64,000 bases of DNA from Agrococcus jejuensis (GTDB taxonomy: Bacteria; Actinomycetota; Actinomycetes; Actinomycetales; Microbacteriaceae), in the NCBI RefSeq assembly GCF_007679035.1, contig NZ_VEFR01000002.1, forward strand, positions 349,245-413,244, written 5' to 3'. This document shows, piece by piece, positions 11,603 to 51,960 of this stretch (position 1 is its first letter; the number at the start of each line of letters is the position of its first letter). The notes beneath the pieces were generated by a model. The model ran no database searches. It saw only the letters and a list, made by a program, of their open reading frames with translations, and had not been told where the DNA came from. Made by a program: the position numbers and the translations under genes.

Positions 11603-12634
11603 ATGTTCGACATGCACCCCACGGTCCCCTCGCATCCGCACGACCTGTCGGATTCGGACCTGGCGCTCGTGGCCGCCCTGCAGGACGCGCCGCGGGCGTC
11701 GTGGGCGGCGATCGGACGCGTCATCGGCACGAGCGCACCCACCGCCAGGCGCCGCTGGGAGGCGATCGCCGCGTCGGGTGCGGCATGGACCACGACGTAT
11801 GCGGGCTTCTCGGCGGGGCTGCTGTTCGGCCTCGCCGAGGTGCGCTGCCGCCCCGGCACCGTCGACGCCGTCGCGGCTGCCCTGCGGCAGCATCCGAAGG
11901 TCATCTCCGTCACGGGCATGACGGGCGATCGCGACCTGTCGCTCACGATCCTCGCCGACGACATGGCGCAGTTCCGCAGGCTCATCCAGTCGTGGCTCGG
12001 CACCCACGAGGCGGTGACGGGCGTGCGCACGACGATCGTGACGCGCATGATCTCCGACGGCTCGCGGTGGCGCGCCGTCGGCCCGCCGCACGACCGCCCG
12101 CCGCAGTCGACGCTCGACGAGGGCCGCACCGACGGCGACGCCGCCACGGGTGAGCAGTGGCGCGCCGTGCTCACGGAGCTCGAGCGCGACGGCCGCGCGA
12201 GCGCGCGCGACATCGCCGCGCGCATCGGCACGTCGGAGGCGCACGCGCGCCGCGTCGTGCGGCGGCTGCTCGCGAGCGGATGGATCCAGCAGCGCATCGA
12301 CGTGTCCCTCGAGCAGCGCATGTGGCCGCACGCGCTCGCGCTGTGGCTCGTCGTGCCCGCCGCCCGGCTCGAGGCGACGGCCATGCAGATCGCCGACCTG
12401 CCGATGACGCGCATGTGCGCGGCCCTCGCCGGCGGCGCGTCGAACCTCTACGTCATCGTGTGGCTGCGCGAGATCGCCGACGCCGCGACCATGGAGGCCG
12501 AGCTCGCCCGCAGCCTCGAGCTGCGCGTGCTCGACCGCGCCATCCTGCTGCACTACTACAAGCGCGTCGGCCATCTCTTCGACGACGCGAACCGCCGCGA
12601 GGGCCACGTGTCGTGGCTGGCGCCGTCGCCGTAG
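11603..12634 (+). CDS. Lrp/AsnC-family transcriptional regulator with tandem domains
   Basis: Two HTH_AsnC plus RAM-like halves are visible (DLALVAALQDAPRASWAAIGRVIGTSAPTARRRWEA... and WRAVLTELERDGRASARDIAARIGTSEAHARRVVRRL...). It is transcribed divergently from the abgT-M20 operon. Confidence 0.8.
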   Translation: MFDMHPTVPSHPHDLSDSDLALVAALQDAPRASWAAIGRVIGTSAPTARRRWEAIAASGAAWTTTYAGFSAGLLFGLAEVRCRPGTVDAVAAALRQHPKVISVTGMTGDRDLSLTILADDMAQFRRLIQSWLGTHEAVTGVRTTIVTRMISDGSRWRAVGPPHDRPPQSTLDEGRTDGDAATGEQWRAVLTELERDGRASARDIAARIGTSEAHARRVVRRLLASGWIQQRIDVSLEQRMWPHALALWLVVPAARLEATAMQIADLPMTRMCAALAGGASNLYVIVWLREIADAATMEAELARSLELRVLDRAILLHYYKRVGHLFDDANRREGHVSWLAPSP

Positions 12635-13143: not shown

Positions 13144-13264
13144 CGCACGGCGCTGCGAGCGTCACCGAGGCGGTCGTCCGCTCCCCGGACCTCGGTGCTG
13201 CGAGCACGCGGACGCCCACGGGCCGGTCGACCCGAAGGTCGACCGGCCCGTCGCGCGTCGGGCG

Positions 13265-16200
13265 TCAGCCCTCGCCGCGTCGGCGGCGCACGCCGAGCAC
13301 GAGGCCGGCGCCGATCGCGAGCATCGCGGCGAGCGCGAGCCAGCCGGCGACCGCGACGCCCGTGCGCGGCAGGTCGCTGCCCGCCTGGCCGCCCTCGGCG
13401 CCCGACTCCGGGCCGCCGTCGTCGGATCCCGGACCGCTCGGAGCGGGAGCGCTGGGCTCGGGCGTGCCCGGGTCGCTCGGTGCGGGCGTGCCGGGATCGC
13501 TGGGACCGGGCGTGCCCGGGTCGCTGGGTCCGGGCGTGCCGGGGTCCTGCGCGAACTCGATGACGATCTCGCCGGTCACGATCGTGCCGTCGGCCGCGAT
13601 GCCCGTCCAGCGCACCGGCGTCGGGTTGCGGGTGAAGCCGACCTCGGGGGTGAACGTGACGAGGCCGGTGGCGACGTCGACCTCCCACACGCCCTCGCCG
13701 GGCACGACGAGTCGCTGCACCTGCGCGCCGAACGCGTCGAGCAGACGCACCGAGTCGCGCTGCAGGGTCGGCGACACGGATCCCGGGTCGACCGTCACGG
13801 GGCTGCCCTCGGGAGCGCTCGCCGCGATGTCGGCGACGACCTCGGTCGAGCCGGCCGTGACCTGCGGGCGGTACGTCGCCGCGGCGGCGGTGCCGTTGGC
13901 GTCGAGGACGCGGTAGGCGACGCCCGCGCCGATGCCGACGAATCCGGCCTCGGGCGTGAACACGATGCGACCGTCGACGAGCGCGTAGGAGCCCTCGCCG
14001 GCCACGACCACGACGGCCGCCGGGGCGCCGACCGCGTCCAGCAGCGTGAGCGACTCGCGCACGAGCGGCACCCCCGGGTCGCCGGCGGCGTCGTTCGCGA
14101 GCGGATCGACCGACTGCGGTGCGCGCTGCACGCCGCTCGACGAGTCGTCGGCGGCGACGGGCGTCACGGCCGAGACCGTCGCACGCGCCGTGCCGGTCGC
14201 GGGGATGCCGTTGGCGTCGCTCACGCGGTAGCCGACCGCGGGCGTCGTGCCCACGAAGCCGGGCTCCGGGGTGAAGACGAGCACGGGCGCGTCGCCGCTG
14301 CGGTCGATCGTCCAGACGCCCTGGCCGTCGACGACGACGCGGTCGATGGGCTGACCGGCGTCGTCGAGCAGCTGCAGCGTCTGCGGGCGCAGCGGCACGT
14401 CGGGGTCGCCGGCCTCGTCGTTCGCGAGCACGTCGACGACGACGGGTGCGCCCTGGCGGCCCGTGCCGAGGTCGGGGCTCGCGATCGGCGCGACGGCGCC
14501 GATCGTCGCGCCGACCGTCGCGGTCGCCACGGTGCCGTTGGCGTCGGCGACGCGGTACGGCACGGGCGTGGCGTCGCCCGAGAACGTCGCAGCGGGCGTG
14601 AAGACCACGACGGGCGCGGCAGGCGTCGAGCGGTCGATCGTCCACACGCCCTGGCCGTCGACGACGAGGCGGTCGACGCCTGCACCGTCGGCATCCACGA
14701 GCTCGAGGGTCGCGGGTCGCAGCGGCACGCTCGGGTGACCGGCGGCGTCGTTCGCGAGCACGTCGATCGTCGCGGCGGCACCCTGGCGGGCGGCGCCGAC
14801 GTCGTCCGTCGCGACGGGCAGCACGGCCGTGATGGTCACGCCGAGGGACGCGGTCGCGCGCGTGCCGTTGACGTCGGCCACGACGTAGCCCACCGGCGTC
14901 GCGTCGCCCCGGAACGTCGGCAGCGGCGTGAACACCACGCGCGGAGCGGCGGGGTCGTCGCGGTCGATCGACCAGGTGCCCTCGTCCTCGACCTCGCGGG
15001 TCGCGACGGGCTCGCCCGCGGCGTCGAGCAGCATGAGCGACGCCGGGTCGAGCGCGACGGCGGGGTCGCCGGCACGGTCGTTCGCGAGCGGGTCGATCCG
15101 CACGGGCGAACCCTGCAGAGCAGCGCCGGCGTCGTCGGCCGCCACCGGCGTCACGGCCGTGACCTCGGCGATGACGATCGCGGCCGTCGTCCAGGTGCCG
15201 TTGGCGTCGGCGACGGCGTACTGCACCGAGGCGCTGCCCGTGAAGGTCGGGTCGGTCGCGAACACGATGCGCGGCGTCGCACCGGCGCGGTCGATCGACC
15301 ACGTGCCGACGCCGGGCACCGACACCTCGTCGACGCGGGCGCCGTTGGCGTCGAGCAGCGTGAGCGACGACGCGACGAGCGGCACCCCGGGTGCACCGGC
15401 GCGGTCGTTGTCGAGCGGCGAGACGGCGACGACGGCGCCCTGGCGGGCCTCGCCCTCGTCGTCGACGGCGATGGGCGTCACGGGCGTGACGCGCACGGCG
15501 ACCTCGGCCGTGGCCGTCGCACCGTTGGCGTCGGCGATCCGGTAGGACACGGGCGTCGCGTCGCCTGCGAACGTCGCGAGCGGCTCGAACACGAGCCTCG
15601 GGGCCGCCGCATCCGTGCGGTCGATGCGCCAGGTGCCCTGGTCGGCCACGTCGAGCGTCGTCACGGCGTCGCCGGCCGCGTCGAGCAGCGTGAGCGTCGA
15701 CGGGCGCAGCGCGATCGACGGGTGGCCCGCCTGATCGTTCGCGAGCACGAGGATCGTCGCCGAGCGCCCCTGCGTCGTCGTGGCCTCGTCGTCGGTCGCG
15801 ACGGGCGTCACGGCGGTCGAGGTCGGCGTGAAGGTCGCCTCCACGGCCGTGCCGTTGGCGTCGGCGACGCGGTAGGCGACGGGCGTCGCGGCGCCGGTGT
15901 GGTCGGCCTCGGGCGTGAAGACGATGCGGGGGCCGCCCATGGCGTCGCGGTCGATGGCGTAGCGGCCCTCGCCGGCGACGACGAGCACGTCGACGGGTGC
16001 GCCGGCGGCGGTCAGCAGCGTGAGCGTCGACGGCACGAGGGGCACCTCGGTGCGACCGGGCACGTCGTTCGCGAGCGGTGCGATCGAGACGGGCGCGCCC
16101 TGCAGGCCGGACGCGACGTCGTCGACCGCCACGGGGGCGACGGCGGCGACCGCGACGACGATCTCGGCGCGCGCGAGCGTGCCGTTCGCGTCGGCGACGC

Positions 16201-19200
16201 GGTACTCGACGGGGGCCGCGTCGCCGCGGAACCCCGCGGCGGGCGCGAACCGCACGACCGGCAGGTCGTCATCGCCGAGCTCGATCGTCCACGTGCCCTC
16301 GTCGAGCACGAAGATGCGGTCGGTCGGCTCGCCGTCGGCGTCGAGCAGCGTGAGCGTCGACGGCACGAGCGGCACGTCGGGGTGGCCGGCGGCGTCGTTC
16401 GCGAGCACGTCGACGGTCATCGGCGCGCCCTGGTAGGTCTGGCCGCGGTCGGCCTCGGCCGTGGGCGTGACGGCGACGATCGTCGCAGCGATCGACGAGC
16501 TCGTGCGCGTGCCGTTGGCGTCGCGCACCTCGTACTCGATCGTCGCGGTGCCGCTGTAGTCGGCCTCGGGGGCGAACGTGACGGTGGGGCCTCCGGCGCC
16601 GGCGCGGTCGATCGACCAGGTGCCGACACCCGGCACCACGACGCGTGCGATGGGCTCGCCGTCCGCGTCGAGCAGCAGGAGCGAGTCGGCGTCGAGCGGC
16701 ACCTCGTCGAGGCCCGCGACGTCGTTGGCGAGCGGCGAGACCGTGACGGGCGCGCCCTGGCGGGCGGTGCCTGCGTCGGCGACGGCGACGGGTGCGACGC
16801 CCGTGATCGTCGCGGCGAAGCCGGCCTCGACGGTCGTGCCGTTCTCGTCGGCGACGCGGTAGCGCACGGCGTCCGCGGTGCCCGTGAAGCCGGGCAGCGG
16901 CGTGAACACGATGCGCGGACCGCCCTCGGCGTCCAGCTCGAGCGCGTACGTGCCCGCATCCGCGATCGTCACGCTCGGCGCGTCCGCGCCGTCCGCGTCG
17001 AGCAGCGTGAGCGTCGAGGGCACGAGCGGCACGTCGGGGTGGCCGGCCGCGTCGTTCGCGAGCGGTGCGACGGATGCGCGCGCACCCTGTCGCGCGGCGG
17101 CCTCGTCGTCGTTGGCGACGGGCACGACGGGAGCGACGCGCACGCCGACGGTCGAGGCCGCCGTCGTGCTGTTCGCGTCGGCGACGCGGTACGCGACGGT
17201 CGTCGCGGGACCCGCGAAGCCGAGCTCGGGTGCGAAGCGCACGACGGGGGCGGCCTCGACGGTGCGGTCGACGGTCCACGTGCCCTCGCCCGTCACGACG
17301 AGCTCGTCGACGGCGGTCTCGCCGTCGAGCAGCGTCAGGGTCGACGGCACGAGGGGCACGTCGGGGTCGCCCGCGGCGTCGTTCGCGACGACGTCGATCG
17401 TCACGGGAGCGCCCTGGCGGGTGCCGGCGGAGTTGGGGTTCGCGACGGGCAGCACGGCGCCGATCGTGGCCGTCGCGGTCGACGTCGCGGGGGTGCCGTT
17501 GGCGTCGGCGACGCGGTAGGCGACGGTCGACTGGCCGACGAAGCCGGGCAGCGGCGCGAAGACGAGCACGGGGGCGTCGACGTCGGCGCGGTCGACGGTC
17601 CAGGTGCCCTGCCCCTCGATCTCGAGCTCGTCGACGGCGGTCTCGCCATCGAGCAGCGAGAGCGATGCGGGCGCGAGCGGCACGTCGGGGTGGCCGGCGA
17701 CGTCGTTCTCGATGGCGTCGATCGTCACCGAGGCGCCCTGGCGGGCAGCGCCGCCGTCGGGAGCGGCCGTCGGGGTCACGGCGTCGATCGTCACGTCGAC
17801 GACGGCGGATGCGTGCGTGCCGTTGTCGTCGGAGACGCGGTACGCGATGGGGCTGGCATCGCCCGTGAAGCCGGGCAGCGGTGCGAAGACGAGGTACGGG
17901 CCGCCCGCGGTGGTGCGGTCGATCGTCCACGTGCCCTCGTCGGCGACCTCGATGCGGTCCACGGGGGCGCCGTCGACGAGCAGCGTGAGCGTGGCGGGGT
18001 CGAGCGGCACCTCGTCGAGCCCGGCGACGTCGTTCGCGAGCACCGCGATCGACACGGGCGCGCCCTGGCGGCCGGTGGCGGCGTCGGGGTCGGCGACGGG
18101 GGTCACGGCGAGCGACGTCGGCGTGAACGTCGCGCTCGTGCGGGTGCCGTTGGCGTCGGCGACGCGGTAGGTCACCGGCGTCGCGGCGCCGACCCACGCG
18201 TCGAGCGGCGTGAAGACGATGCGGGGGCCGCCCTCGGCGTCGGCATCGATCTCGTAGGTGCCCTGGCCGTCGATCGCGACGGTCGCGGCCGGCTGGCCGT
18301 CGGCGCCGAGCAGCTCGAGCGTCTCGGGGTCGAGCGGCACGTCGTCGCGGCCCGCCGCATCGTTCGCGAGGGGTGCGACCGAGACGGGAGCGCCCTGGCG
18401 GGCGGAGGCGACGTCGGCGGTCGCGACGGGCGTCACGGCCTCGACGACCGCGGTGACGGTCGCGATCGCGACGGTGCCGTTGGCGTCGGCGACGCCGTAG
18501 CGCGCGGGCGTCGCGGTGCCCCGGAAGGACGGCTCCGGGGTGAACGCGATGCGCGGCATCGTGGCGTCGGCGACCACGGCGTACGTGCCCTGGCCCGCGA
18601 CGGTCACGGTCGCGACGGGGGTGCCGGCGTCGTCGACGAGCGTGAGCGTCGTCGGGTCGAGCGGCACGTCGTCGAGGCCGGCCGCGTCGTTCGCGAGCGG
18701 TGCGACGGATGCGGTGGCACCCTGGCGCGAGGTGGCGACGTCGGGCCGCGCGATCGGCGTGACCGCGTCGATGATCGCGGTCGCGGTCGAGGTCGCGACG
18801 GTGCCGTTGGCGTCGGAGACGCGGTACGACACGGTCGAGGTGCTCGCGAACGAGGGCAGCGGTGCGAAGACGAGCACGGGGGCGTCCTCGTCGTCGCGGT
18901 CGACGCGCCACGTGCCCTGGCCGGCGATCTCGACCTCGTCGGCGGCGGCGCCCTCGGCGTCGACGAGCGTGAGGGTCGAGGCGACGATCGGCACGGCGGG
19001 GTGGCCGGCGTCGTCGTTCGCGACCGCGTCGATCGTCACGGTGGCGCCCTGACGGGCCTCGCCCGCGTCGGCGACGGCGATGGGCGTGACGGCTGCGATC
19101 GTGGCGGTGACCTGCGCGGTCGCCGTCGTGCCGTTGGCGTCGGCGACGACGTACGTCACGGCGTCGGGCGTGCCGACGTAGGTCGCGACGGGCGTGAAGA

Positions 19201-25200: not shown

Positions 25201-28200
25201 CGGCGACGTCGTTGGCGAGCACGGCGACGGATGCGGCAGCACCCTGGCGCGCGCTGGCGACGTCGTCGACGGCGTCGGGCACGACGGCCTCGATCGTGGG
25301 GGTGACGGTCGCGGTCGTGGTGGTGCCGTTGGCGTCGGCGACGCGGTAGGTCACGGCGGTCGCGGTGCCCGCGAAGCTCGGGATCGGCGTGAAGACCACG
25401 CGCGGAGCAGCTGCGTCGGCGCGGGTGATCGCGTACGTGCCCTGGCCGGCGACGACGACCTCGGTCGTCTCGGCGCCCGTGCCGTCGAGCAGGCGCAACG
25501 TGTCGGGGCGCAGCGGCACGGCGGCGTCGCCGGCGGCGTCGTTCGCGAGCACGGCGACGGATGCCGCGGCACCCTGGCGCGCCGACGCCGTGTCGTTCGC
25601 GGCGACGGGCGTCACGGCCGTGATGGTCGGCGTGAAGGTCGAGGTCGCCGTCGTGCCGTTGGCGTCGGCGACGCGGTAGGTCGCGGGCGTCGCGGTGCCG
25701 GTGAAGGCGGGCGCCGGTGCGAAGACGAGCACGGGGCTCGCGGCGACGCTGCGGTCGACGCGGTAGCTGCCCTGACCGGGCACGAGCAGCAGGTCGACGG
25801 CGGCGTCGTTCGCGCCGACGAGCGTGAGCGACGAGCGCACGAGGGCGACGTCGACGTGGCCGCGAGCGTCGTTGGCGACGGCGTCGACCCGGACCTCGGC
25901 GCCCTGGCGCGCGGAGCCCGCGTCGGGGTTGGCGACGGGGGTCACGGCGGCGACGGTGATGCGGATGCTCGCGGTCGCGGTGGTGCCGTTGGCGTCGGCG
26001 ACGCGGTAGGGCACGGGGGTCGCGACGCCCGTGAAGCCGGGCAGCGGCGTGAAGGTCACGATGGCGCGGCCGTTGGCGGCGAACGAGAGCGCGTAGGTGC
26101 CCTGGCCCGAGATGGTGCGCTCGGCGGTCGCCTGGCCCGTGGGCGTGAGCAGCGTCACCGACGAGTCGACGAGCGGCACGGCGGGGTCGCCGGCGGCGTC
26201 GTTGCCGATGGGCACGACGGCGACCGCGCCTCCCTGGCGCGTGGTGGCCGAGTCGTCGGTCGCGGTCGGCGTGACGGGCGTGATCGTGGACGTCACGGTG
26301 GCGTCGGCGGTCGTGCCGTTGGCGTCGGCGATGCGGTAGCGCTGCGCCGTGGCCTCGCCCGTGAACGCAGGCAGGGGCGTGAAGACGATGCGCGGCGCGC
26401 TCGCCGTCGACCGGTCGATCGTCCAGGTCCCCTGGGTCGCGACCGTGATCGTCGTCGCGAGCTGCCCGTTGCCGTCGACGAGGCGCAGCGACGCGGGGTC
26501 GAGCGGCACGCCGGCGTCGCCGGCGGCGTCGTTGGCGAGCACGGCGACGGATGCGGGGGCACCCTGGCGCGCCGACGTCGTGTCGTTCGCCGCGGTCGGC
26601 GTCACGGGCGTGATCGTCGGCGTGATCGTGGAGGTCGCGACGGTGCCGTTCGCGTCGGCGACGCGGTAGGTCGCCGCGTTCGCCTGGCCGGTGAACGCGG
26701 GCAGCGGCGTGAAGCGCACGACGGGCATCGACGGCGTCGAGCGGTCGACGCGGTAGGTGCCCTGGCCCGCGACGACCACCTCGTCGACGGAGGCGCCGTT
26801 CGCGCCGACGAGCGCGAGCGTCGTGGGCTGGAGCGGGCGGCGCGCGTCGCCGGCGGCGTCGTTGCCGAGCGGTGCGACGGCCACGGCGGCCCCCTGGCGC
26901 GCGGTGCCGGCGTCGGGGTTGGCGACGGGCGTCACGGCCGTGAGCGTGGGCGTGTAGGCGGCGGTCGTCGTCGTGCCGTTCGCGTCGGCGACGCGGTACG
27001 AGACGGGCGTCGCGGAGCCGACGAACGTCGGCTCGGGCGTGAAGACGATGCGCGGGCTCGACGGCGTCGAGCGGTCGACCGTGTACGTGCCCTGGCCCGC
27101 GACGACGACCTGGTCGGTCGCCTGGCCGCCCGAGAGCAGCGTGAGCGTGCCCGGGGTGAGCGGCACGGCGGCGTTGCCGGCCTGGTCGTTGGCCAGCGGT
27201 GCGACCGACAGCGCGATGCCCTGCGCGCCGGTGGCGGCGTCGTTCGCGGCGACGGGCGTCACGCGCACGAACGTGGGCGTGAACGTGGTCGTCGCGGCGG
27301 TGCCGTTGGCGTCGGCGACGCGGTACGAGACGGATGCGGGCGTGCCGATGAAGGTGCGGTCGGGCGTGAACGTGATGGTCGTGCCGCTCAGCGCGTAGGT
27401 GCCGCCGGTGACGGCGAGCGAGGTGACGGCCTGGCCGGAGCCGTTCAGCAGCGTGAGGGTCGACGGCGCGAGCGGCACGTTCGGGTTGCCCGGTGCGTCG
27501 TTGGCGAGCGGCTGCGTCGACTGCGCGACGCCCTGCGGACCCGTGGTGGTGTCCGGCTGCAGCGCGGGGTTCACCGCCGTGACGGTCACGGCGAGCGTCG
27601 TGCGGCGGTGGTTGCCCTGTCCGTCCTCGACGTCGTAGGTGACGGGCGTCGCGGCGCCGCGGAAGGCGGCGAGGGGCGTGAAGACGACCTGGCCGTTCTG
27701 CACGGCGTACGTGCCCTGGCCCGAGACCGTGATGGAGCTGGCGAGCTGACCGGTCGAGGGGTCGACGAGGCGCAGCGTCGCGGGCACGACGTCGGTCGCG
27801 TCGTTCGCGAGCACGGCCACGGTCTGCGCGAGGCCCTGCGCGCCGGTCGACGCGTCGGGGCTCACGCCCGTCTGCACCGTCGCGGTCCACGTCGCGGTCG
27901 TCGTCGTGCCGTTGGCGTCGGCGACGCGGTACGGTGCCGCGGTGGCCACGCCCGTGAAGCCGGGCAGCGGCTGGAAGGTCAGCTGGCCGTCGACGACGCG
28001 CCAGGTGCCCTGGGATCCGACGGTGAGCGCGGTGACGGCGGTGGTGCCCGAGAGCAGCGTGAGCGTGGAGCGCACGAGCGGCACGGCGGCGTTGCCGGCC
28101 TGGTCGTTCGCGAGCGGGTCGATGCGCTGCAGCGCACCCTGCGCGCCCTGCGACACGTCGTTCGCGGCGGTGGGCGTCACGGCGGTCGTCGTCGCCGTGT

Positions 28201-30751
28201 AGGTCGAGGTCGCCGAGGTGCCATTCGCGTTCGTCACGCGGTAGGTGGCGCTCGGCGCCGTGCCCACGAAGGTGCTCGTGGGCGTGAAGACGAGGGTCGA
28301 GCCGCTCACCGAGTAGGTGCCACCCGTGACGGCGAGCGTCGAGACCGCCTGGCCGGAGCCGTTCAGCAGCGTGAGCGCCGACGCGTTCCAGCCGATGCTC
28401 GCGTTGCCCGTGGAGTCGTTCGCGTACGGGTTCACCGACTGGGCGACGCCCTGCGGACCCGTCGTGGCATCCGCGTTCGCCGCCGGGGTGACGGGCGTGA
28501 CGGTCGCGGCGATCGTCGCCTGCACGACCGTGCCCGCGGTGGTGCCGACGCGGTAGTCGATCTGGGTCGCGGCGCCCGTGAAGCTCGCGACGGGCGTGAA
28601 GACCACGGTGGTGCCGTTGACCGACCAGGTGCCCTGGCCCGAGACGGCGTACGACGTGACGGAGGCGCCCGTGGTGGGGTGCACGAGGCGCAGCGTCGAG
28701 CCGTCGAGCGTGACGCCCTGCGCGCCGTCGTTGGCGAGCACGGCGATGGTCTGGGCGACGCCCTGCGGTCCCGTCGACGCGTCGTCGACGGCGACCTGCG
28801 TCACGGTGGGCGTGTACCGGGCGGTCGCGGTGACGCCGCGCGAGTCGGCCACCTGGTAGCGCACGCCGGAGGCCTGGCCGACGAAGTCGGCGACGGGTGC
28901 GAACGCGATCGCTCCCGTCGACGTGTCGACCGTGTACGTGCCCTGGCCGGCGACGGCGAGCGACGTGACGGCGGACGTGCCGTCGAGGATGCGCACGGTC
29001 GACGGCACGAGCGGCACGGAGGCGACGCCGGGGGCGTCGTTCGAGAGCACGGCGGCGGTCTGCGTCGCGCCCTGGGCGCCGGTCGTGGCGTCGTCGCTCG
29101 CCGTGGGCGCGGCGGGCGCCGAGACGGTGACGGTGAGGGTCGCGGTCGTCGAGCGGCCCGCCTCGTCGGTGACGCGGTACGTGAGGGCGGGGGCGGTGCC
29201 GACGTAGCCGGCGGCGGGCGTGAAGGTGATGGCGCCGTCGGAGGTGCGCACGGTGAAGGTGCCCTGCGCCGTCGTGAGGGTCTGGACCCAGCTCGAGCCG
29301 GACTGCAGGCGCACGCTCGAGGGCACGAAGGCGACGCCGCCCGTCGTGTCGTTGTCGAGCACGGCCACGGTCGTGGCCGTCTCGAACGCGGTCGTGCGCG
29401 CGTCGTTCGCGGCCGACGGCTGCGGCACGGTGAGCGTGACGGCGTGGTCCTCGACCTCGCCTCGCTGCACGACGCCCGCGGGGTTCGCGACCATGGCGGC
29501 GGTCGTGCCGATGCGCAGGCGCGCGTAGGTCGGCGATGCGCTCGTCGCGCTCACGGCGTCGTCGGGCACGGTCCACGTGAGCGACGCCGAGCCGCTGGTG
29601 CATGTGGCCGTGGCGCGCTCGTCGCCGTCGAACGAGCCGTTGCCGTCGAAGTCGATCCACGCTGCGACGCTGTTCGTGCTCGACGTCGCGGCGGCGCACG
29701 ACACGGGCACCGTGACGCTCTGACGCGGTGCGACCGTGAGCGCGAAGCCCGCCGACAGCGCATCCTCGTCGTCGAGCCCGTTCTGGTCGTCGCCGACGGC
29801 GCCGGCGGTCGTGAAGGGCCCGGTCTCGGCATCGACGAGGCTGCCGAGGCGCGGCGTCGACTGCTGGCGCGTCGCGAGGGCGAAGGACGACGCGCTCACG
29901 TTCGTCGCGGTCGTCGAGACGGTGCCTCCCGAGAACGTGCTCACGAGCCCGTGCGTCGCCGTGCCGTAGGACGCAGGCGCATCGCTGTGGTCGAACGACG
30001 CCACGACGCCGAACGCAGCGGCCTGGATGCCGCCACCGAACAGGCGCACGCCCGTGATCGACGTGGCGCCCTCGGCCATCGCGACGACGACGTTCGTGCC
30101 CGAGCCGCACTCGCCGTTCGACGTCAGCGTGAGCTGGTTGGCCGTCGTGCTGCGCTGCGCGGTGACGTTGAAGCTCGGGCACACGCCGGCGGGCGTGCGG
30201 TCGAGGATGCGCCACGTGGCGCCCGAGGCGATGGTGCCGCGGATGCTCTCGCCCGACGCGAGGCTCTCGGCGTCCGCCATGACGAGGCCGTCGAGCGGGT
30301 AGGCGACGCCGCCGAGCGTCGCCGAGCAGGCGACGTCGAACTGCGAGGTGGCGCCGGTCTGCGTCGCGAGGCCGATCGACCCCGTGCCGGGGTAGAGGTT
30401 GTCGAGGTAGTCGCCGCTGTAGGAGCCGGGCGTGTACGGCGAGAGGATCTGGCCGGCGGTGTTGCGCTGCGTGTCACGAGCGAGGTTCGAGAGGGTGCAC
30501 GTCGTGACGAATGGCTGACCGTTGACCTGCACGGTGTTCGTCTGCGTCGCGCCCGAGTTCGCGATGGTGCCCGACCACTGGAACCAGTTGATCTCCGCGG
30601 GCAGCGCTCCGGTGCCACCCGTGGCGTACGCCGCCTGCGCCGGCGCGGGCGCGGTGACGAGCGGTGCCGCGAGGGCTCCGAGCAGCACGGCCACGAGTCC
30701 GACGAGGAGCCCATGGCGGAGCTTGCTGGGGCGCTGGCGGCGTGAGAGCAC
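13265..30751 (-). CDS. Giant (5,828 aa) LPXTG-anchored cell-surface protein with about 50 tandem Ig-like (Big_9 / tandem-95-type) repeats
   Basis: One uninterrupted 17,487-nt ORF with a GTG start. The signal peptide is VLSRRQRPSKLRHGLLVGLVAVLLGALAAPLVTAPAPAQA. The ~430-aa non-repetitive N-terminal region includes a GEVED-type motif (FDGNGSFDGDE...GEVEDHAVTL). About 50 repeats of ~95-100 aa follow, each with the signature ...ARQGA.V.V..LANDxAG...VPL.P.TL.LLD...GQGTY.VDR.....PR.VFTP...F.GTAT.VTYRVADANGTT.TAT.TPT...VTPVA.. After a PGTPGPSD x3 linker, the C-terminus ends with the sorting signal LPRTG plus a hydrophobic segment and RRRR. Confidence 0.85.
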   Translation of the reverse strand: MLSRRQRPSKLRHGLLVGLVAVLLGALAAPLVTAPAPAQAAYATGGTGALPAEINWFQWSGTIANSGATQTNTVQVNGQPFVTTCTLSNLARDTQRNTAGQILSPYTPGSYSGDYLDNLYPGTGSIGLATQTGATSQFDVACSATLGGVAYPLDGLVMADAESLASGESIRGTIASGATWRILDRTPAGVCPSFNVTAQRSTTANQLTLTSNGECGSGTNVVVAMAEGATSITGVRLFGGGIQAAAFGVVASFDHSDAPASYGTATHGLVSTFSGGTVSTTATNVSASSFALATRQQSTPRLGSLVDAETGPFTTAGAVGDDQNGLDDEDALSAGFALTVAPRQSVTVPVSCAAATSSTNSVAAWIDFDGNGSFDGDERATATCTSGSASLTWTVPDDAVSATSASPTYARLRIGTTAAMVANPAGVVQRGEVEDHAVTLTVPQPSAANDARTTAFETATTVAVLDNDTTGGVAFVPSSVRLQSGSSWVQTLTTAQGTFTVRTSDGAITFTPAAGYVGTAPALTYRVTDEAGRSTTATLTVTVSAPAAPTASDDATTGAQGATQTAAVLSNDAPGVASVPLVPSTVRILDGTSAVTSLAVAGQGTYTVDTSTGAIAFAPVADFVGQASGVRYQVADSRGVTATARYTPTVTQVAVDDASTGPQGVAQTIAVLANDGAQGVTLDGSTLRLVHPTTGASVTSYAVSGQGTWSVNGTTVVFTPVASFTGAATQIDYRVGTTAGTVVQATIAATVTPVTPAANADATTGPQGVAQSVNPYANDSTGNASIGWNASALTLLNGSGQAVSTLAVTGGTYSVSGSTLVFTPTSTFVGTAPSATYRVTNANGTSATSTYTATTTAVTPTAANDVSQGAQGALQRIDPLANDQAGNAAVPLVRSTLTLLSGTTAVTALTVGSQGTWRVVDGQLTFQPLPGFTGVATAAPYRVADANGTTTTATWTATVQTGVSPDASTGAQGLAQTVAVLANDATDVVPATLRLVDPSTGQLASSITVSGQGTYAVQNGQVVFTPLAAFRGAATPVTYDVEDGQGNHRRTTLAVTVTAVNPALQPDTTTGPQGVAQSTQPLANDAPGNPNVPLAPSTLTLLNGSGQAVTSLAVTGGTYALSGTTITFTPDRTFIGTPASVSYRVADANGTAATTTFTPTFVRVTPVAANDAATGAQGIALSVAPLANDQAGNAAVPLTPGTLTLLSGGQATDQVVVAGQGTYTVDRSTPSSPRIVFTPEPTFVGSATPVSYRVADANGTTTTAAYTPTLTAVTPVANPDAGTARQGAAVAVAPLGNDAAGDARRPLQPTTLALVGANGASVDEVVVAGQGTYRVDRSTPSMPVVRFTPLPAFTGQANAATYRVADANGTVATSTITPTITPVTPTAANDTTSARQGAPASVAVLANDAAGDAGVPLDPASLRLVDGNGQLATTITVATQGTWTIDRSTASAPRIVFTPLPAFTGEATAQRYRIADANGTTADATVTSTITPVTPTATDDSATTRQGGAVAVVPIGNDAAGDPAVPLVDSSVTLLTPTGQATAERTISGQGTYALSFAANGRAIVTFTPLPGFTGVATPVPYRVADANGTTATASIRITVAAVTPVANPDAGSARQGAEVRVDAVANDARGHVDVALVRSSLTLVGANDAAVDLLLVPGQGSYRVDRSVAASPVLVFAPAPAFTGTATPATYRVADANGTTATSTFTPTITAVTPVAANDTASARQGAAASVAVLANDAAGDAAVPLRPDTLRLLDGTGAETTEVVVAGQGTYAITRADAAAPRVVFTPIPSFAGTATAVTYRVADANGTTTTATVTPTIEAVVPDAVDDVASARQGAAASVAVLANDVAGHPDVPLAPGSVTLLDAAGQPATSVRVDGAGTYALDTRTASAPRVVFTPLASYVGTPTAVTYRVADANGTTTTAVVTVTIGAVTPVAVDDVASARQGAPASVAPLANDLAGDADVPLVADTLELLDANGAPAETVTVAGGSYAIVDGAQPRIVFTPDAAFAGEAAPVTYRVADANGTTATARFTPTIGAVTPIARPDAGSARQGAPATIDALANDEAGDADVPLRPTSLALLADGAPVDEIVVPNEGTWTVDRDGAEPVLVFTPLATFTGATAAVAYRVLDENGTQATSTAIATIGAVTPVAIDDEGTARQGATVVIDALANDEPGDADVPLDDASLVLLDGDAEVSEIVVDGQGTWTIDRATASLVFTPLAGFVGTAAVDYRVRDDNGTPADATARAILTAVTPTAAPDAGDGRQGETVRIDALANDEAGDPDVPLQPATLRLLSGATPVTELVVADEGTWTVDLDADGGPELVFAPLPGFSGLTTAAPYRVLDANGTQAASTAVATITAVTPLAADDVAAGRQGAPASVAVLANDASGHPDVPLRPTTLELLGADGQPAATVTIDGQGTYAITRADAAAPRVEFTPIPSFTGQATPVTYRVADANGTTTTATVTPTIDAVTPTAQADWASARQGAPVRIDAVANDLAGHADVPLAPATLALLDGAGAATDEVVTVVGAWRVDRTTAEAPVLVFTPQPSFVGTTEPVAYRVLDANGTAATSVATATITAVTPTATPDVAAARQGAPASVAPLANDRPGLADVPLVPSTLVLLDTAGQPATTVDVDGGRYAIEASETAPRIVFSPAASFTGEAAPVTYSVADANGTRTSSTFTPTITSVVPVATNDRQSERQGLPVRIDAVANDQAGHPDVPLVQSTLTLRDGAGNDVDELVVQDRGTWRVDRSVAAAPVLVFTPLPSFGGATSRVTYAVADANGTVTTARATAMLEAVTPVAADDQAAARQGAEASVAPLANDAAGHPDVPLDPETLELLDANDQPATIVDVAAGSYRIEQVAGVPTIVFTPLASFVGPADPVRYRVADANGTTTTARFTPTISGVQPVAARDGGAARQGASVTVAPLENDAPGIDDVPLDPESFTLLDDDGQPVAELVVAGVGRWTVDRTDPAAPTVTFAPERGFTGDASIDYEVRDQNGTVATTTITATIAPVTPSADDDFATARQGAVASVAPLDNDDAGHPDVPLDPATLSLLDGTTVVDEVVVAGQGTYALDRGAQGGPRIVFTPVSTFTGNATVVTYRVADANGTTTTATFRPTLSAVRPVANPDAGTARQGARVSMAVLANDLAGDPAVALRPGTLQLLDAQGAPATTVAVTGGSYAIDATNAAAPRVVFTPDATFVGTAASVTYSVADANGTRTTSTATPTLTAVTPVAIDDAATGRQGAAVAVEPLRNDIPGHADVQLDADTLTLLDGTAAVDSLRVPGQGTYAIERGGEGGPRIVFTPETTYVGTADAVAYRVADANGTTTSATYAATLTAVTPIAADDAATGRQGSTVAVAPLANDVPGDAAVALEPGSITLLDGTTAVDVLVVADQGTYALDRAAAGGPRIAFTPLPAFVGTATGVAYRVADANGTATTATFTPTLTAVTPVANADEGSARQGAPVSLPVLANDVAGDRAVPLDPASLRLVGAGSALVTELVVDGQGTWTIDRATASAPRVVFTPLPGFVGEATPVDYSIADANGTRATAAVAATIDAVTPTANPDVASARQGAPASVAVLANDRAGHPDVRLVPSTLTLLDGTGAPATTVRVVGGTYAIDASTAAAPRVEFTPAPSFVGTAAPVTYRVADANGTTTTATVTPTIGAVTPVATPDVGEAHQGTTVTIDALANDRAGAADVPLARPTLMLLDGEAAVDELVIDGQGAWTVDRRTESAPVLVFTPLPTYAGSSTVAYRVADANGTVATSTATATLVAVTPTATDDAATARQGAAASVAVLTNDAAGHPDVALDPASVRLLVDGAPVTSIEVDGVGTWTIDRANLVAPRIVFTPVATYVGTPDAVTYVVADANGTTATAQVTATIAAVTPIAVADAGEARQGATVTIDAVANDDAGHPAVPIVASTLTLVDAEGAAADEVEIAGQGTWRVDRDDEDAPVLVFAPLPSFASTSTVSYRVSDANGTVATSTATAIIDAVTPIARPDVATSRQGATASVAPLANDAAGLDDVPLDPTTLTLVDDAGTPVATVTVAGQGTYAVVADATMPRIAFTPEPSFRGTATPARYGVADANGTVAIATVTAVVEAVTPVATADVASARQGAPVSVAPLANDAAGRDDVPLDPETLELLGADGQPAATVAIDGQGTYEIDADAEGGPRIVFTPLDAWVGAATPVTYRVADANGTRTSATFTPTSLAVTPVADPDAATGRQGAPVSIAVLANDVAGLDEVPLDPATLTLLVDGAPVDRIEVADEGTWTIDRTTAGGPYLVFAPLPGFTGDASPIAYRVSDDNGTHASAVVDVTIDAVTPTAAPDGGAARQGASVTIDAIENDVAGHPDVPLAPASLSLLDGETAVDELEIEGQGTWTVDRADVDAPVLVFAPLPGFVGQSTVAYRVADANGTPATSTATATIGAVLPVANPNSAGTRQGAPVTIDVVANDAAGDPDVPLVPSTLTLLDGETAVDELVVTGEGTWTVDRTVEAAPVVRFAPELGFAGPATTVAYRVADANSTTAASTVGVRVAPVVPVANDDEAAARQGARASVAPLANDAAGHPDVPLVPSTLTLLDADGADAPSVTIADAGTYALELDAEGGPRIVFTPLPGFTGTADAVRYRVADENGTTVEAGFAATITGVAPVAVADAGTARQGAPVTVSPLANDVAGLDEVPLDADSLLLLDADGEPIARVVVPGVGTWSIDRAGAGGPTVTFAPEADYSGTATIEYEVRDANGTRTSSSIAATIVAVTPTAEADRGQTYQGAPMTVDVLANDAAGHPDVPLVPSTLTLLDADGEPTDRIFVLDEGTWTIELGDDDLPVVRFAPAAGFRGDAAPVEYRVADANGTLARAEIVVAVAAVAPVAVDDVASGLQGAPVSIAPLANDVPGRTEVPLVPSTLTLLTAAGAPVDVLVVAGEGRYAIDRDAMGGPRIVFTPEADHTGAATPVAYRVADANGTAVEATFTPTSTAVTPVATDDEATTTQGRSATILVLANDQAGHPSIALRPSTLTLLDAAGDAVTTLDVADQGTWRIDRTDAAAPRLVFEPLATFAGDATPVSYRIADANGATATAEVAVRVTPVTPIAVDDEGEARQGAVVAVSPLDNDRAGAPGVPLVASSLTLLDANGARVDEVSVPGVGTWSIDRAGATPRIVFATDPTFTGSASVQYAVADANGTWTTAAIVIAEVTAVTPVAADDAGAALQGSPVRIDPLANDRAGDPAVALDPASLMLLDAAGEPVATREVEDEGTWSIDRDDPAAPRVVFTPLPTFRGDATPVGYVVADVNGTRATASLGVTITAVLPVATDDVGAARQGAAATIDVLANDAAGHPSVPLRPATLELVDADGAGVDRLVVDGQGVWTIDRSTPAAPVVVFTPAATFSGDATPVPYRVADANGTVATATVGATIGAVAPIASPDLGTGRQGAPVVVDVLANDEAGDPDVPLRPQTLQLLDDAGQPIDRVVVDGQGVWTIDRSGDAPVLVFTPEPGFVGTTPAVGYRVSDANGIPATGTARATVSAVTPVAADDSSSGVQRAPQSVDPLANDAAGDPGVPLVRESLTLLDAVGAPAAVVVVAGEGSYALVDGRIVFTPEAGFVGIGAGVAYRVLDANGTAAAATYRPQVTAGSTEVVADIAASAPEGSPVTVDPGSVSPTLQRDSVRLLDAFGAQVQRLVVPGEGVWEVDVATGLVTFTPEVGFTRNPTPVRWTGIAADGTIVTGEIVIEFAQDPGTPGPSDPGTPGPSDPGTPAPSDPGTPEPSAPAPSGPGSDDGGPESGAEGGQAGSDLPRTGVAVAGWLALAAMLAIGAGLVLGVRRRRGEG

Positions 30752-30867
30752 GGCGAGGAGACCTCTCGGAGGGCATGACTGCAGGGATTGCGACGAGCGC
30801 AGAGATGCTCCGGCGGCACTGATTCCGTAGCGTCACGATCCTATGCGTCCGCACCGCACATTCGTGA

Positions 30868-30892
30868 GGAATTGTCAACGGCATTGACGCTT
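30868..30892 (-). promoter_or_regulatory. Candidate promoter/operator of the giant gene: an AT-richer patch with a TTGACA hexamer inside an inverted repeat TGTCAAcggcaTTGAC
   Basis: It lies about 120 bp upstream (on the minus strand) of the GTG start. Local GC is lower than surroundings. No convincing -10 was found by eye. Confidence 0.3.
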
Positions 30893-31207
30893 CCGCCCGA
30901 GGCTCATGCGGCGTGCCCTTGTACCCCGGTGAGTCGAGGACACTTCATGTATTTCGCTCGTCCACGGAACGGGGTACAGGATCGGCGTGTCGCACGCCGA
31001 CGCGCGGCCAGGTCGTTCGATCGACGTACGAGACGCCTGACGCGGCACGACGCTTCGATGGCCTCCCGACGCGAGGGGGCCACCGACGCCCGCCCTCGGC
31101 GAGGGTCAGCGGCCCCTGCCGCGTCGCGATCGCGGCCGGCTCGTCGGCGGCGGTCGGGTCGAGCACGGCATCCCCGCGGCGGTCGTCGACGACGACCGCC
31201 GCTGCGG

Positions 31208-51934: not shown

Positions 51935-51960
51935 CCAATCGACGATGGGAGACCGCCCGC

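What the first reader, a model, noticed from the sequence alone, without database searches (positions are those of the whole stretch)
13265..30751. A 17.5 kb single gene for a 5,828-aa sortase-anchored surface protein built from about 50 tandem Ig-like repeats
One uninterrupted ORF spans 27% of the window. The architecture is:
- a signal peptide ending in AQA;
- a ~430-aa unique N-terminal region with a GEVED-type motif (GEVEDHAVTL);
- a long run of ~95-100-aa repeats carrying the recurring signature ARQGA..VAVLANDxAG....VPL.P.TL.LLD...GQGTY.VDR...PRIVFTP...FTGTATPVTYRVADANGTTTTAT.TPTI.AVTPVA, which looks like the Big_9 / tandem-95 type;
- a PGTPGPSD x3 spacer;
- a canonical LPRTG plus hydrophobic plus RRRR sorting signal.

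The repeats are near-identical at the nucleotide level, so copy number is probably recombinationally unstable and easily collapsed by short-read assembly. No sortase gene is present in the window. Giant repetitive adhesins like this are often strain-specific accessory genes.
Basis: partly seen in the sequence, partly recalled or inferred. Interest (0 to 1): 0.7.

Follow-up and report, generated by a model that had tools for sequence, protein, structure and literature searches.

The report
Giant CshA-type cell-wall-anchored fibrillar adhesin
This is one real 17.5 kb gene in an Agrococcus-like actinobacterium that encodes a 573 kDa surface fibre of the known CshA adhesin family: a sticky tip on a stalk of 49 Ig-like domains, unusually long and lysine-free, but with old, diverged repeats rather than unstable near-identical ones.

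Summary
The ORF 13265..30751 (-) is real: 5,828 codons with no stop and coding-type codon GC (0.72/0.59/0.96).

**Architecture:**
- Sec signal peptide
- CshA_NR2 adhesive domain
- GEVED domain
- 49 contiguous CshA-type Ig-like repeats (101-111 aa)
- Pro-rich spacer
- LPRTG sorting signal

It belongs to the CshA/CshB fibrillar-adhesin family. Big_9 and tandem-95 match only as weaker, overlapping models.

- The repeats are not near-identical. Mean identity is 64% for nucleotides and 49% for protein, and the longest exact nucleotide repeat is 43 nt.
- Copy number looks stable. Agrococcus versicolor has a syntenic orthologue of 5,819 aa with exactly 49 repeats. 41 of these 49 match best at the same index.

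**Rates of change:** the tip evolves fast (dN/dS about 0.9). The flanking gene gives 0.16.

**Unusual features:**
- Three times as many repeats as CshA.
- Four times as many as the next relative in the sample.
- No NR1 region.
- No lysine in the mature protein.
- Net charge about -349.

**Untested:** the ligand and the sortase.

**Verdict:** a new, extreme member of a known kind, of modest interest.

The parts
13265..30751 (-). Complete CDS of the giant adhesin: 5,828 aa, GTG start, TGA stop.
   Evidence: It is stop-free, and GC1/2/3 is 0.72/0.59/0.96. The start position matches the annotated start of the A. versicolor orthologue P0193.
30632..30751 (-). Sec-type signal peptide, aa 1-40: MLSRRQRPSKLRH, then a hydrophobic core, then APAQA|AY. 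It holds the only lysine in the protein.
   Evidence: Read from the translation. It is 80% identical in the orthologue. The cleavage site is inferred, not predicted by a tool.
30002..30595 (-). CshA_NR2-type adhesive tip domain, aa 53-250: a lectin-like beta-sandwich of the polymer-adhesin-domain class.
   Evidence: - Pfam PF18651: E 2.2e-39, 136 bits against a cut-off of 24.
- Head profile against PDB sequences: 5l2d (CshA NR2) E 1.5e-11 and 6yzg (CshB NR2) E 7e-10.
- AF2 model: pLDDT 93.
29669..30001 (-). Connector, aa 251-361, carrying the conserved DHSDAPASYG motif.
   Evidence: The motif aligns with VDSSDAPASYGEAYH in the CshA NR2 crystal construct. The region is confidently modelled but mostly coil.
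29435..29668 (-). GEVED domain, aa 362-439, equivalent to CshA NR3. It ends in RGEVEDHAVTL.
   Evidence: Pfam PF20009: E 1.9e-13, 51.5 bits against a cut-off of 24.4. NR2 is invariably followed by GEVED in this family (PMC10952558).
27254..29416 (-). Stalk repeats R1-R7, aa 446-1166: the short subtype, 101-104 aa each.
   Evidence: Own HMM. Identity is 44% within the group and 42% to R8-R47. Each repeat is 66-88% identical to the repeat at the same index in A. versicolor.
14159..27253 (-). Stalk repeats R8-R47, aa 1167-5531: forty CshA-type Ig-like domains of 105-110 aa, joined by a short, nearly invariant AVTPVA linker.
   Evidence: - Own HMM scores of 120-154 bits each.
- PF19076 and TIGR04225 matches.
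- Repeat profile hits PDB 6szc (CshA repeat) at E 8e-11.
- Di-repeat AF2 model: pLDDT 96.4, pTM 0.82, all-beta.
13547..14158 (-). Stalk repeats R48-R49, aa 5532-5735: divergent membrane-proximal repeats.
   Evidence: Own HMM scores of 96.8 and 36 bits. Identity to R8-R47 is 40%.
13373..13546 (-). Acidic, Pro-rich wall-spanning spacer, aa 5736-5793. It has about four copies of an 8-aa unit of the PGTPGPSD type.
   Evidence: TRF: period 24, 4.0 copies, 83% matches. The orthologue has a different unit here, PVDPSVP x4.
13265..13372 (-). Cell-wall sorting signal: LPRTG, a 23-residue hydrophobic segment, then an RRRRGEG tail and the stop codon.
   Evidence: - NCBIfam TIGR01167: 21.0 bits against a cut-off of 15.9.
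- Pfam Gram_pos_anchor: 19.9 bits against a cut-off of 20, so just below.
- Motif position confirmed.
- The same LPRTG...RRRRG is present in the orthologue.
13218..13251 (.). Perfect 15-bp G+C-rich hairpin with a UUCG loop, starting 14 nt after the stop codon. It lies between the adhesin gene and the convergent DUF4287 gene. It is probably a terminator or a 3' stabiliser.
   Evidence: Inverted repeat I1. The RNA fold gives -50.2 kcal/mol, z = -6.1, and 0 of 200 shuffles fold as well. There is no U-tract. The function is inferred.
30752..31207 (-). The 456-nt upstream intergenic region. It is presumed to hold the promoter and 5' UTR. A GAGAGG Shine-Dalgarno-like element lies about 10 nt before the GTG start.
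   Evidence: Sequence read directly. No sigma-70 consensus was found and no Rfam family matched. The promoter has not been located.

Best explanation
The gene encodes a monomeric, sortase-anchored fibrillar adhesin of the CshA/CshB family.

**Proposed mechanism**
1. The precursor is exported through Sec, and its 40-aa signal peptide is removed.
2. A housekeeping sortase encoded elsewhere in the genome cleaves the C-terminal LPRTG sorting signal between T and G. It then links the protein covalently to peptidoglycan.
3. The acidic, Pro-rich spacer crosses the cell wall.
4. Forty-nine tandem Ig-like CshA repeats, joined by short Pro-containing linkers, form a stalk. Its length is roughly 170-220 nm, estimated at about 3.5-4.5 nm per domain.
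5. The stalk presents the NR2 domain (a lectin-like, polymer-adhesin-domain fold) and the GEVED domain at its tip. The tip binds a polymeric ligand, either glycan or protein, that is not yet known.

**Differences from S. gordonii CshA**
- There is no disordered NR1 'catch' segment, so only the NR2 'clamp' part of the CshA catch-clamp mechanism can apply.
- The organism is an environmental Microbacteriaceae, close to Agrococcus versicolor. Fibronectin is therefore unlikely to be the ligand.

**Evolution**
- The repeat array is ancient and positionally stable.
- The tip is the fastest-evolving part of the protein.

**Shown versus inferred**
- Shown: domain identities, repeat number, repeat divergence, orthology and the predicted folds.
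- Inferred: export, anchoring, fibre length and adhesion.
For: **The gene is real**
- The ORF is open and has coding-type codon composition.

**Domain identities**
- Pfam: CshA_NR2 136 bits, GEVED 51.5 bits, CshA_repeat 135-842 bits per piece, 49 stretches in total.
- NCBIfam: TIGR04225 127-729 bits and TIGR01167 21 bits, each above its cut-off.
- Own HMM: 49 contiguous repeats.

**Links to solved structures**
- The repeat profile hits the CshA repeat 6szc at E 8e-11.
- The head profile hits CshA NR2 (5l2d) at E 1.5e-11 and CshB NR2 (6yzg) at E 7e-10.
- The repeats hit authentic S. gordonii CshA fragments at about 33% identity, E 1e-49.

**Predicted folds**
- Di-repeat model: pLDDT 96, pTM 0.82. 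It resembles tandem Ig and cadherin rods.

**Literature**
- NR2 followed by GEVED sits at the tips of LPXTG-anchored stalk proteins. 24% of NR2 homologues are actinobacterial, and their stalks are often CshA-like (PMC10952558).

**Conservation under selection**
- The syntenic orthologue in A. versicolor is 5,819 aa, with 49 repeats and LPRTG. It is 70% identical overall.
- dN/dS is 0.47 for the repeats and 0.70 for the connector plus GEVED region. For NR2 it is 0.93, close to the neutral value.
Against: - No sortase gene is in the window, and the rest of the genome could not be searched.
- Pfam Gram_pos_anchor is marginally below its cut-off (19.9 against 20).
- There are no expression data, and no promoter was found.
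- The ligand is unknown. NR2 is only 15% identical to CshA NR2 in the structural alignment, and a single-sequence search of the PDB found nothing.
- NR1 is absent, so the published catch-clamp mechanism cannot be transferred whole.
- The dN/dS of about 0.93 for NR2 could reflect relaxed constraint rather than diversifying selection. Nei-Gojobori estimates are unreliable in absolute terms at a GC3 of 96%.
- The fibre length is an estimate taken from typical Ig-domain dimensions. It was not measured on the model.
Confidence: 0.85

Rival explanations
1. It is a 'Periscope'-type, length-variable surface protein. Near-identical DNA repeats would recombine readily, so copy number would differ between strains and short-read assemblies would collapse the array.
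For: CshA_repeat is listed among the folds found in Periscope proteins (PMC9704523). The array is long and regular: TRF reports a period of 330 nt and 40.7 copies.
Against: - Repeats average 64% nucleotide identity, with a maximum of 80%.
- The longest exact repeat is 43 nt.
- Adjacent repeats are no more similar than distant ones.
- An independently assembled genome of another species has exactly 49 repeats. 41 of the 49 match best at the same index.
- The in-register alignment is 78.7% identical over 11.5 kb. Out-of-register alignments reach about 69%.
Confidence: 0.04
2. The protein acts mainly as a homophilic or matrix-building scaffold, with function residing in the stalk rather than the tip. 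In this reading the strongly acidic, cadherin-like repeats bind Ca2+ and mediate cell-cell aggregation or biofilm cohesion, as in Bap/LapF-type proteins.
For: - There are secondary matches to Cadherin_5, Cadherin_4 and Big_9.
- The di-repeat model resembles cadherins, RTX-adhesin extender repeats and the Bap C region.
- The mature protein has a net charge of about -349 and a pI of about 4.1.
- Asp and Asn residues are nearly invariant (D5, N22, D23, D91, N93) and include the LAND and ADANGT motifs.
Against: - A dedicated NR2 plus GEVED adhesive head is conserved at the tip. In this family the head is the binding module (PMC10952558).
- Ca2+ binding was not tested.
- The LAND motif is not conserved in the solved CshA repeat (alignment).
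- This reading does not exclude tip-mediated adhesion.
Confidence: 0.12
3. It is a generic tandem-95/Big_9 repeat protein with no specific relationship to CshA. This is how public records name the orthologue.
For: UniRef names the A. versicolor orthologue 'Tandem-95 repeat protein', and GenBank calls it 'hypothetical protein'. Big_9 scores above its cut-off. NF012211 scores above its cut-off in one piece (172.7 against 90).
Against: - The CshA-specific models score 2.5 to 4 times higher on the same residues.
- Tandem-95 matches cover only part of the model, for example positions 29-90 of 98.
- The head is CshA_NR2 plus GEVED.
- PDB hits are to CshA and CshB themselves.
Confidence: 0.03
4. It is an assembly artefact or a decaying pseudogene: a chimeric or collapsed repeat array that merely happens to stay open in G+C-rich DNA.
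For: Long spurious ORFs are common at 75% G+C. The plus strand carries a 5,336-aa shadow ORF over the same region.
Against: - The codon-position GC is that of a real gene. The shadow frame stays open only because its first codon position is the complement of the real gene's G/C-rich third position.
- An orthologue of the same length and repeat order exists in a separate assembly.
- dN/dS is 0.47 over 3,322 repeat codons.
- Every repeat is a full-length match to the HMM.
Confidence: 0.01

Closest known systems
Streptococcus gordonii CshA / CshB fibrillar adhesins (PDB 5l2d and 6yzg for NR2, 6szc for a repeat)
   Same: The domain order matches: signal peptide, NR2 adhesive domain, GEVED (NR3), tandem CshA-type repeats of about 100 aa, LPXTG anchor. 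All the family HMMs match. The DxSDAPxSYG and GEVED motifs are conserved.
   Different: - 49 repeats instead of 17, and 573 kDa instead of about 259 kDa.
- No intrinsically disordered NR1 'catch' region.
- A plain Sec signal rather than an FSIRK/YSIRK type.
- Repeats are about 33% identical to CshA repeats, and NR2 is about 15% identical.
- The mature protein has no lysine.
- The host is an environmental high-G+C actinobacterium, so fibronectin is unlikely to be the ligand.
Actinobacterial 'CshA/CshB family fibrillar adhesin-related proteins' (for example from Krasilnikovia, Ruania and Nocardioides; described by Barringer et al. 2023, PMC10952558)
   Same: They carry the same NR2 plus GEVED head at 35-50% identity. 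They have LPXTG or LAxTG anchors and sometimes CshA-like stalks.
   Different: Those found here are 0.5-3 kb... in protein terms 0.5-3 thousand aa long and have at most 12 CshA-type repeats. The paper reports that actinobacterial members are shorter than those of Firmicutes. This protein and its A. versicolor orthologue are length outliers.
Agrococcus versicolor JCM 16026 protein WP_344344253.1 / GAA2175476.1 (P0193)
   Same: It is the syntenic orthologue: 5,819 aa, 49 repeats in the same order, LPRTG, no lysine in the mature protein, and six conserved Cys residues in the head.
   Different: It is only 70% identical overall, and the head is about 60% identical, whereas the neighbouring SPFH protein is 94-95% identical. 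The Pro-rich spacer uses a different repeat unit. The protein is publicly named only 'hypothetical' or 'tandem-95 repeat protein'.
Polymer adhesin domain (PAD) proteins: Sgo0707, antigen I/II (SspB, SpaP), GbpC, PrgB
   Different: There is no detectable sequence similarity. Their stalks are different (alpha/PPII or other Ig types), and their ligands (glucan, DNA, LTA, SAG) cannot be transferred to this protein.
Periscope proteins (for example SasG, Rib, alpha C)
   Same: They are also rod-like arrays of tandem Ig-like repeats that project a functional tip from the cell wall.
   Different: Periscope proteins are characterised by highly similar tandem repeats and by repeat-number variation among strains and homologues. 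Here the repeats are 64% identical at the nucleotide level, and the number is identical in two species.

Membership tests
CshA/CshB-family fibrillar adhesin | N-terminal CshA_NR2 adhesive domain (PF18651) | tested here: met
   - Pfam: 136 bits against a cut-off of 24, aa 53-250, covering profile positions 2-196 of 196.
- Head profile hits 5l2d at E 1.5e-11.
CshA/CshB-family fibrillar adhesin | GEVED (NR3) domain directly downstream of NR2 | tested here: met
   PF20009: 51.5 bits against a cut-off of 24.4, aa 362-439. The first stalk repeat starts 13 residues after the GEVED motif begins (aa 433) and 9 after it ends; the paper reports 12-17 residues downstream of the motif.
CshA/CshB-family fibrillar adhesin | Stalk of tandem CshA-type repeats (PF19076 / TIGR04225) | tested here: met
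   49 repeats were found. TIGR04225 scores 127, 729 and 220 bits against a cut-off of 60 in the pieces scanned. The count is supported. The repeat profile hits 6szc at E 8e-11.
CshA/CshB-family fibrillar adhesin | C-terminal LPXTG cell-wall sorting signal | tested here: met
   The C-terminus reads LPRTG, a hydrophobic stretch, then RRRR. TIGR01167 scores 21.0 against 15.9. Pfam PF00746 scores 19.9 against 20, which is marginal.
CshA/CshB-family fibrillar adhesin | Intrinsically disordered NR1 'catch' region preceding NR2 (needed for the catch-clamp mechanism) | tested here: not met
   The mature N-terminus is at about aa 41, and the NR2 match starts at aa 53. The model is ordered from residue 1. 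This feature belongs to streptococcal CshA. It is not a feature of the wider NR2-GEVED family.
CshA/CshB-family fibrillar adhesin | Fibronectin binding and formation of surface fibrils | not testable with these tools
   This needs binding assays and electron microscopy.
Sortase-anchored surface protein | A cognate sortase in the genome | not testable with these tools
   There is none in the 64-kb window. The rest of the genome is not available, and the source genome is not in the searched collections.
Tandem-95 repeat protein (NF012211) | Score above the curated cut-off (90 bits) as the best-fitting repeat model | tested here: inconclusive
   Scores are 43.7, 172.7 and 47.8 bits, so only one of three pieces is above the cut-off. 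Matches cover only part of the model, and the score is always far below TIGR04225.
Big_9 bacterial Ig domain (PF17963) | Score above the gathering threshold | tested here: met
   Scores of 46.6-310 bits against a cut-off of 23.6. These matches overlap the CshA_repeat matches and are 2.5-3 times weaker. Big_9 is a related, less specific model.
Periscope proteins | Highly similar (near-identical) tandem repeats at the DNA level | tested here: not met
   Mean nucleotide identity is 64%, the maximum is 80%, and the longest exact repeat is 43 nt.
Periscope proteins | Repeat-number variation between strains or homologues | tested here: not met
   The window protein and the A. versicolor orthologue both have 49 repeats, and 41 of 49 are positionally orthologous. 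Only one comparison genome was available.
Polymer adhesin domain (PAD) superfamily | Lectin-like beta-sandwich fold shared with AgI/II-V, GbpC, PrgB and Sgo0707 | tested here: met
Sortase-polymerised pilins | A pilin-motif lysine for intermolecular isopeptide linkage (established knowledge of Gram-positive pili) | tested here: not met
   The mature protein contains no lysine at all. It therefore cannot act as a pilin acceptor subunit or form Lys-Asn isopeptide bonds.

The most novel reading that the evidence does not exclude
The stalk may act as a selected 'ruler'. Exactly 49 individually diverged domains are kept in register across species, even though the amino-acid sequence changes quickly. 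This suggests selection on fibre length, roughly 0.2 um, perhaps to reach beyond a capsule or EPS layer. It also suggests selection against inter-repeat similarity, to avoid misfolding or recombination.

The complete lack of lysine over 5,757 mature residues may likewise be adaptive. In an actinobacterium it could protect a very large, slowly exported precursor from pupylation. It could also protect the exposed fibre from trypsin-like proteases or from chemical cross-linking.
Probability: 0.2. Interest if true: 0.5.

Novelty: new member of a known kind. Interest (0 to 1): 0.3.

Why it matters
It extends the CshA/CshB fibrillar-adhesin architecture to an extreme in an environmental actinobacterium. 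It has three times the repeats of the streptococcal prototype. It also has four times the repeats of the next relative in the sample of 150 searched here.

It is also a clean counter-example to the usual assumption that giant repeat adhesins are recombinationally unstable. This 49-domain array is old, positionally orthologous between species and easy to assemble.

The conserved stalk length, the fast-evolving tip and the complete absence of lysine make it a useful natural case for two questions. How do very long tandem-domain proteins avoid misfolding and degradation? Is stalk length itself under selection?

On the practical side, the public orthologue is annotated only as 'hypothetical' or 'tandem-95' and could be re-annotated.

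Tried and rejected
- **Single-sequence PDB search with the head:** no hit. A profile built from homologues was needed.
- **Exact look-up of the neighbouring SPFH protein to identify the source genome:** nothing on record. The genome-contig scan found no 100% match either. The organism is therefore inferred only as a close relative of Agrococcus versicolor (SPFH 94-95% aa identity, flanks 89-91% nt identity).
- **The search for homologous proteins:** it returned only proteins shorter than 800 aa, so it could not be used for length comparisons. The all-against-library search served instead.
- **Promoter and terminator consensus scans:** nothing found.
- **Rfam over the whole window:** nothing found. 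This rules out a known riboswitch upstream of the gene.
- **Alternating two-repeat super-unit:** lag-2 identity is only 1-2 points higher than lag-1. The Y-type and W-type repeats are intermixed with no strict pattern. Rejected.
- **Twin-arginine export:** the SRRQRP sequence does not fit the S/T-RRxFLK motif. Rejected by inspection.
- **Back et al. 2020 (JBC) on CshA repeat architecture:** the paper is not held in the library.
- **Ca2+ sites and end-to-end distance:** they could not be examined on the models because coordinates are not exposed.
Full report

Mostly yes. ORF 13265..30751 on the minus strand is 5,828 codons long with no stop. Its codon-position G+C is 0.72/0.59/0.96, the pattern of real genes in this 74% G+C window.

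The 5,336-aa ORF on the plus strand (14735..30745) has the mirror pattern, 0.97/0.59/0.71. Its first codon position is the complement of the real gene's G/C-rich third position, so stop codons (all T-initial) almost never arise. It is a shadow, not a gene.

The GTG start at 30751 coincides with the annotated start of the orthologue. A GAGAGG element lies about 10 nt upstream.

**2. Anatomy**

| Residues | Feature | Evidence |
|---|---|---|
| aa 1-40 | Sec-type signal peptide ending APAQA\|AY | |
| aa 53-250 | Pfam CshA_NR2, E 2e-39, full-length match | |
| aa 251-361 | Connector with the DHSDAPASYG motif | |
| aa 362-439 | GEVED domain, E 2e-13 | |
| aa 446-5735 | 49 back-to-back repeats | |
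| aa 5736-5793 | Acidic Pro-rich spacer, 8-aa unit in about four copies | |
| aa 5794-5828 | LPRTG, 23 hydrophobic residues, RRRRGEG | |

- An HMM built from the repeats themselves finds 49 contiguous units. Pfam CshA_repeat stretches over the five pieces add up to 49.
- R1-R7 are a shorter subtype (101-104 aa). R8-R47 are 105-110 aa. R48-R49 are divergent.
- For the sorting signal, TIGR01167 scores 21.0 against a cut-off of 15.9. Pfam Gram_pos_anchor scores 19.9 against 20.
- A perfect 15-bp hairpin with a UUCG loop (-50 kcal/mol, z = -6.1) begins 14 nt after the stop codon. It lies between this gene and a convergent DUF4287 gene.

**3. Which family?**

The repeats are CshA-type. On the same 1,550 residues the scores compare as follows.

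| Specific model | Bits | Less specific model | Bits |
|---|---|---|---|
| PF19076 CshA_repeat | 842 | Big_9 | 310 |
| TIGR04225 CshA_fibril_rpt | 729 | tandem-95 (NF012211) | 173 |

- Tandem-95 is below its 90-bit cut-off in two of the three pieces scanned.
- A profile of the repeats hits the solved CshA repeat 6szc at E 8e-11.
- A profile of the head hits CshA NR2 (5l2d) at E 1.5e-11 and CshB NR2 (6yzg) at E 7e-10.
- Database hits to the repeats include authentic S. gordonii CshA fragments at about 33% identity.

The predicted folds agree with this.
- The AF2 head model is confident (pLDDT 93.2, pTM 0.90).

Barringer et al. 2023 (PMC10952558) report several relevant points.
- NR2 is invariably followed by GEVED (which corresponds to NR3) and sits at the tips of anchored stalk proteins.
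- 24% of NR2 homologues are actinobacterial, often with CshA-like stalks.
- Actinobacterial members are shorter than those of Firmicutes.

**4. The repeats are not near-identical, and the array is stable**

Within the gene:
- Pairwise identity among the 49 units averages 49% for protein (maximum 74%) and 64% for nucleotides (maximum 80%).
- The longest exact direct nucleotide repeat in the whole gene is 43 nt.
- TRF reports 67% matches.
- Adjacent repeats are no more similar than non-adjacent ones, 52.8% in both cases. There is therefore no sign of recent tandem duplication or concerted evolution.

Between species:
- The one scan of representative genomes found a syntenic orthologue in Agrococcus versicolor JCM 16026.
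- The SPFH/Band-7 gene immediately upstream is 94-95% identical at the protein level. Its DNA is about 91% identical, and a second conserved flank segment is 89% identical.
- The full orthologue is P0193 (WP_344344253.1). It is 5,819 aa, has exactly 49 repeats and ends in LPRTG...RRRRG.
- 41 of its 49 repeats find their best match at the same index in the window protein. Identity on the diagonal averages 70%, against 48% off the diagonal.
- The in-register DNA alignment is 78.7% identical over 11.5 kb. Out-of-register alignments reach about 69%.

All the duplications therefore predate the split of the two species, and copy number has not changed since. The low nucleotide identity also means that short-read collapse of the array is unlikely. 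The gene is not strain-specific, at least across these two species.

**5. Evolutionary rates**

Nei-Gojobori dN/dS against A. versicolor:

| Region | dN/dS |
|---|---|
| SPFH neighbour | 0.16 |
| Stalk repeats | 0.47 |
| Connector plus GEVED | 0.70 |
| NR2 tip | 0.93 |

Absolute values are unreliable at a GC3 of 96%. The ranking is still clear: the ligand-binding tip changes fastest. This matches the 'highly mutable ligand-binding fold' described for the family. It could also reflect relaxed constraint.

**6. How unusual is it?**

- The head was scored against 1.84 billion cluster representatives. Of the 150 best relatives, 14 carry CshA-type repeats.
- After the Agrococcus orthologue with 49 repeats, the next largest count is 12. 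S. gordonii CshA has 17 (PMC10952558).
- The mature protein is 5,757 aa, 573 kDa, with a pI of about 4.1 and a net charge of about -349.
- It contains no lysine at all. The same is true of the orthologue.
- The background lysine frequency in this window's genes is about 1%, so about 60 lysines would be expected (P about e^-60).
- Relatives are lysine-poor (median 0.8%), but no other relative longer than 2,000 aa falls below 0.1%.
- Lysine deserts are known to be common in Actinobacteria and have been linked to avoiding pupylation (PMC10665810). This protein is an extreme case of a known tendency.
- All six Cys residues are in the head and are conserved.

**7. Mechanism**

The proposed sequence is Sec export, sortase cleavage at LPRT|G, covalent attachment to peptidoglycan, and a Pro-rich spacer that crosses the wall. 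Forty-nine Ig-like domains would then form a stalk that displays the NR2 plus GEVED tip to bind an unknown polymer.

- The domain identities, folds, repeat number and orthology are shown by the analyses above.
- Export, anchoring, adhesion and fibre length are inferred.
- The length estimate of about 170-220 nm uses 3.5-4.5 nm per domain. This figure comes from general knowledge of Ig-like domains and, from memory, from the roughly 60-nm CshA fibrils.
- NR1 is absent, so only the 'clamp' half of the CshA catch-clamp mechanism can apply.
- Fibronectin is an unlikely ligand for an environmental Microbacteriaceae.
- Ca2+ binding by the nearly invariant Asp and Asn residues (LAND, ADANGT) is a plausible way to make the stalk rigid, but it was not tested.

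**8. Context**

- Downstream of the gene lie a convergent DUF4287 gene, a two-module AsnC/Lrp regulator and an AbgT transporter. Upstream lie SPFH/Band-7, an MFS sugar transporter and PfkB.
- There is no sortase and no second LPXTG protein in the window.
- No Rfam family and no consensus promoter was found.

**9. Verdict**

This is a real and correctly delimited gene. It is a new, extreme member of the known CshA/CshB fibrillar-adhesin family.

Its family label is approximate, and its inference of instability is wrong.

Interest is modest. The conserved count of 49 domains and the lysine-free stalk are the features worth following up.

Noticed in passing
window 13373-30631 (-), mature protein: The mature 5,757-aa protein has no lysine. 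The only K is at residue 10, in the signal peptide. The A. versicolor orthologue is the same. The background lysine frequency in this window is about 1%. The protein also has only 12 Met and 24 His, and all 6 Cys are in the head.
   Followed up: partly
window 14735-30745 (+): A 5,336-aa antisense 'shadow' ORF covers the adhesin gene. It stays open only because its first codon position is the complement of the G/C-rich third position of the real gene (GC1 0.97).
   Followed up: yes
window 14000-30000: There is sustained positive GC skew (+0.10 to +0.16) and negative AT skew on the plus strand across the whole gene. This reflects the Ala/Thr/Val/Asp/Pro-rich codon usage of the repeats. It is not a replication signal.
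   Followed up: no
window 13373-13546 (-) compared with the C-terminus of P0193: The Pro-rich wall spacer uses a different short repeat in the two species: PGTPGPSD-type here and PVDPSVP x4 in A. versicolor. This short, low-complexity part has been replaced or remodelled between the two species, unlike the Ig-like array.
   Followed up: partly
proteins P0186-P0250: Many giant proteins of 2,000-8,000 aa from the public library contain 10-33 tandem copies of a GEVED-like segment, matching aa 260-403 of the head. This is an architecture in which the GEVED-type domain itself is the repeated unit.
   Followed up: no
L001 691-8155 compared with window 32863-33911: A. versicolor has about 7.4 kb between the SPFH gene and the next conserved segment, where the window has about 1 kb. 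This is an insertion or deletion just upstream of the conserved SPFH-adhesin pair.
   Followed up: no
window 48765-52634 (-): A 1,289-aa ORF has Pfam hits to cytochrome P450 (C-terminal part only), a pyridine-nucleotide disulphide oxidoreductase and flavodoxin. It could be a P450-reductase fusion, or several genes merged by the long open frames typical of G+C-rich DNA.
   Followed up: no
window 11603-12634 (+): An AsnC/Lrp-family regulator with two HTH modules in one 343-aa ORF lies close to the 3' side of the adhesin gene, next to an AbgT-family transporter. No link to the adhesin was established.
   Followed up: no
window 13218-13251: A perfect 15-bp G+C-rich hairpin with a UUCG tetraloop (-50 kcal/mol) lies between the convergent adhesin and DUF4287 genes. 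It has no U-tract, as is common for actinobacterial terminators.
   Followed up: partly
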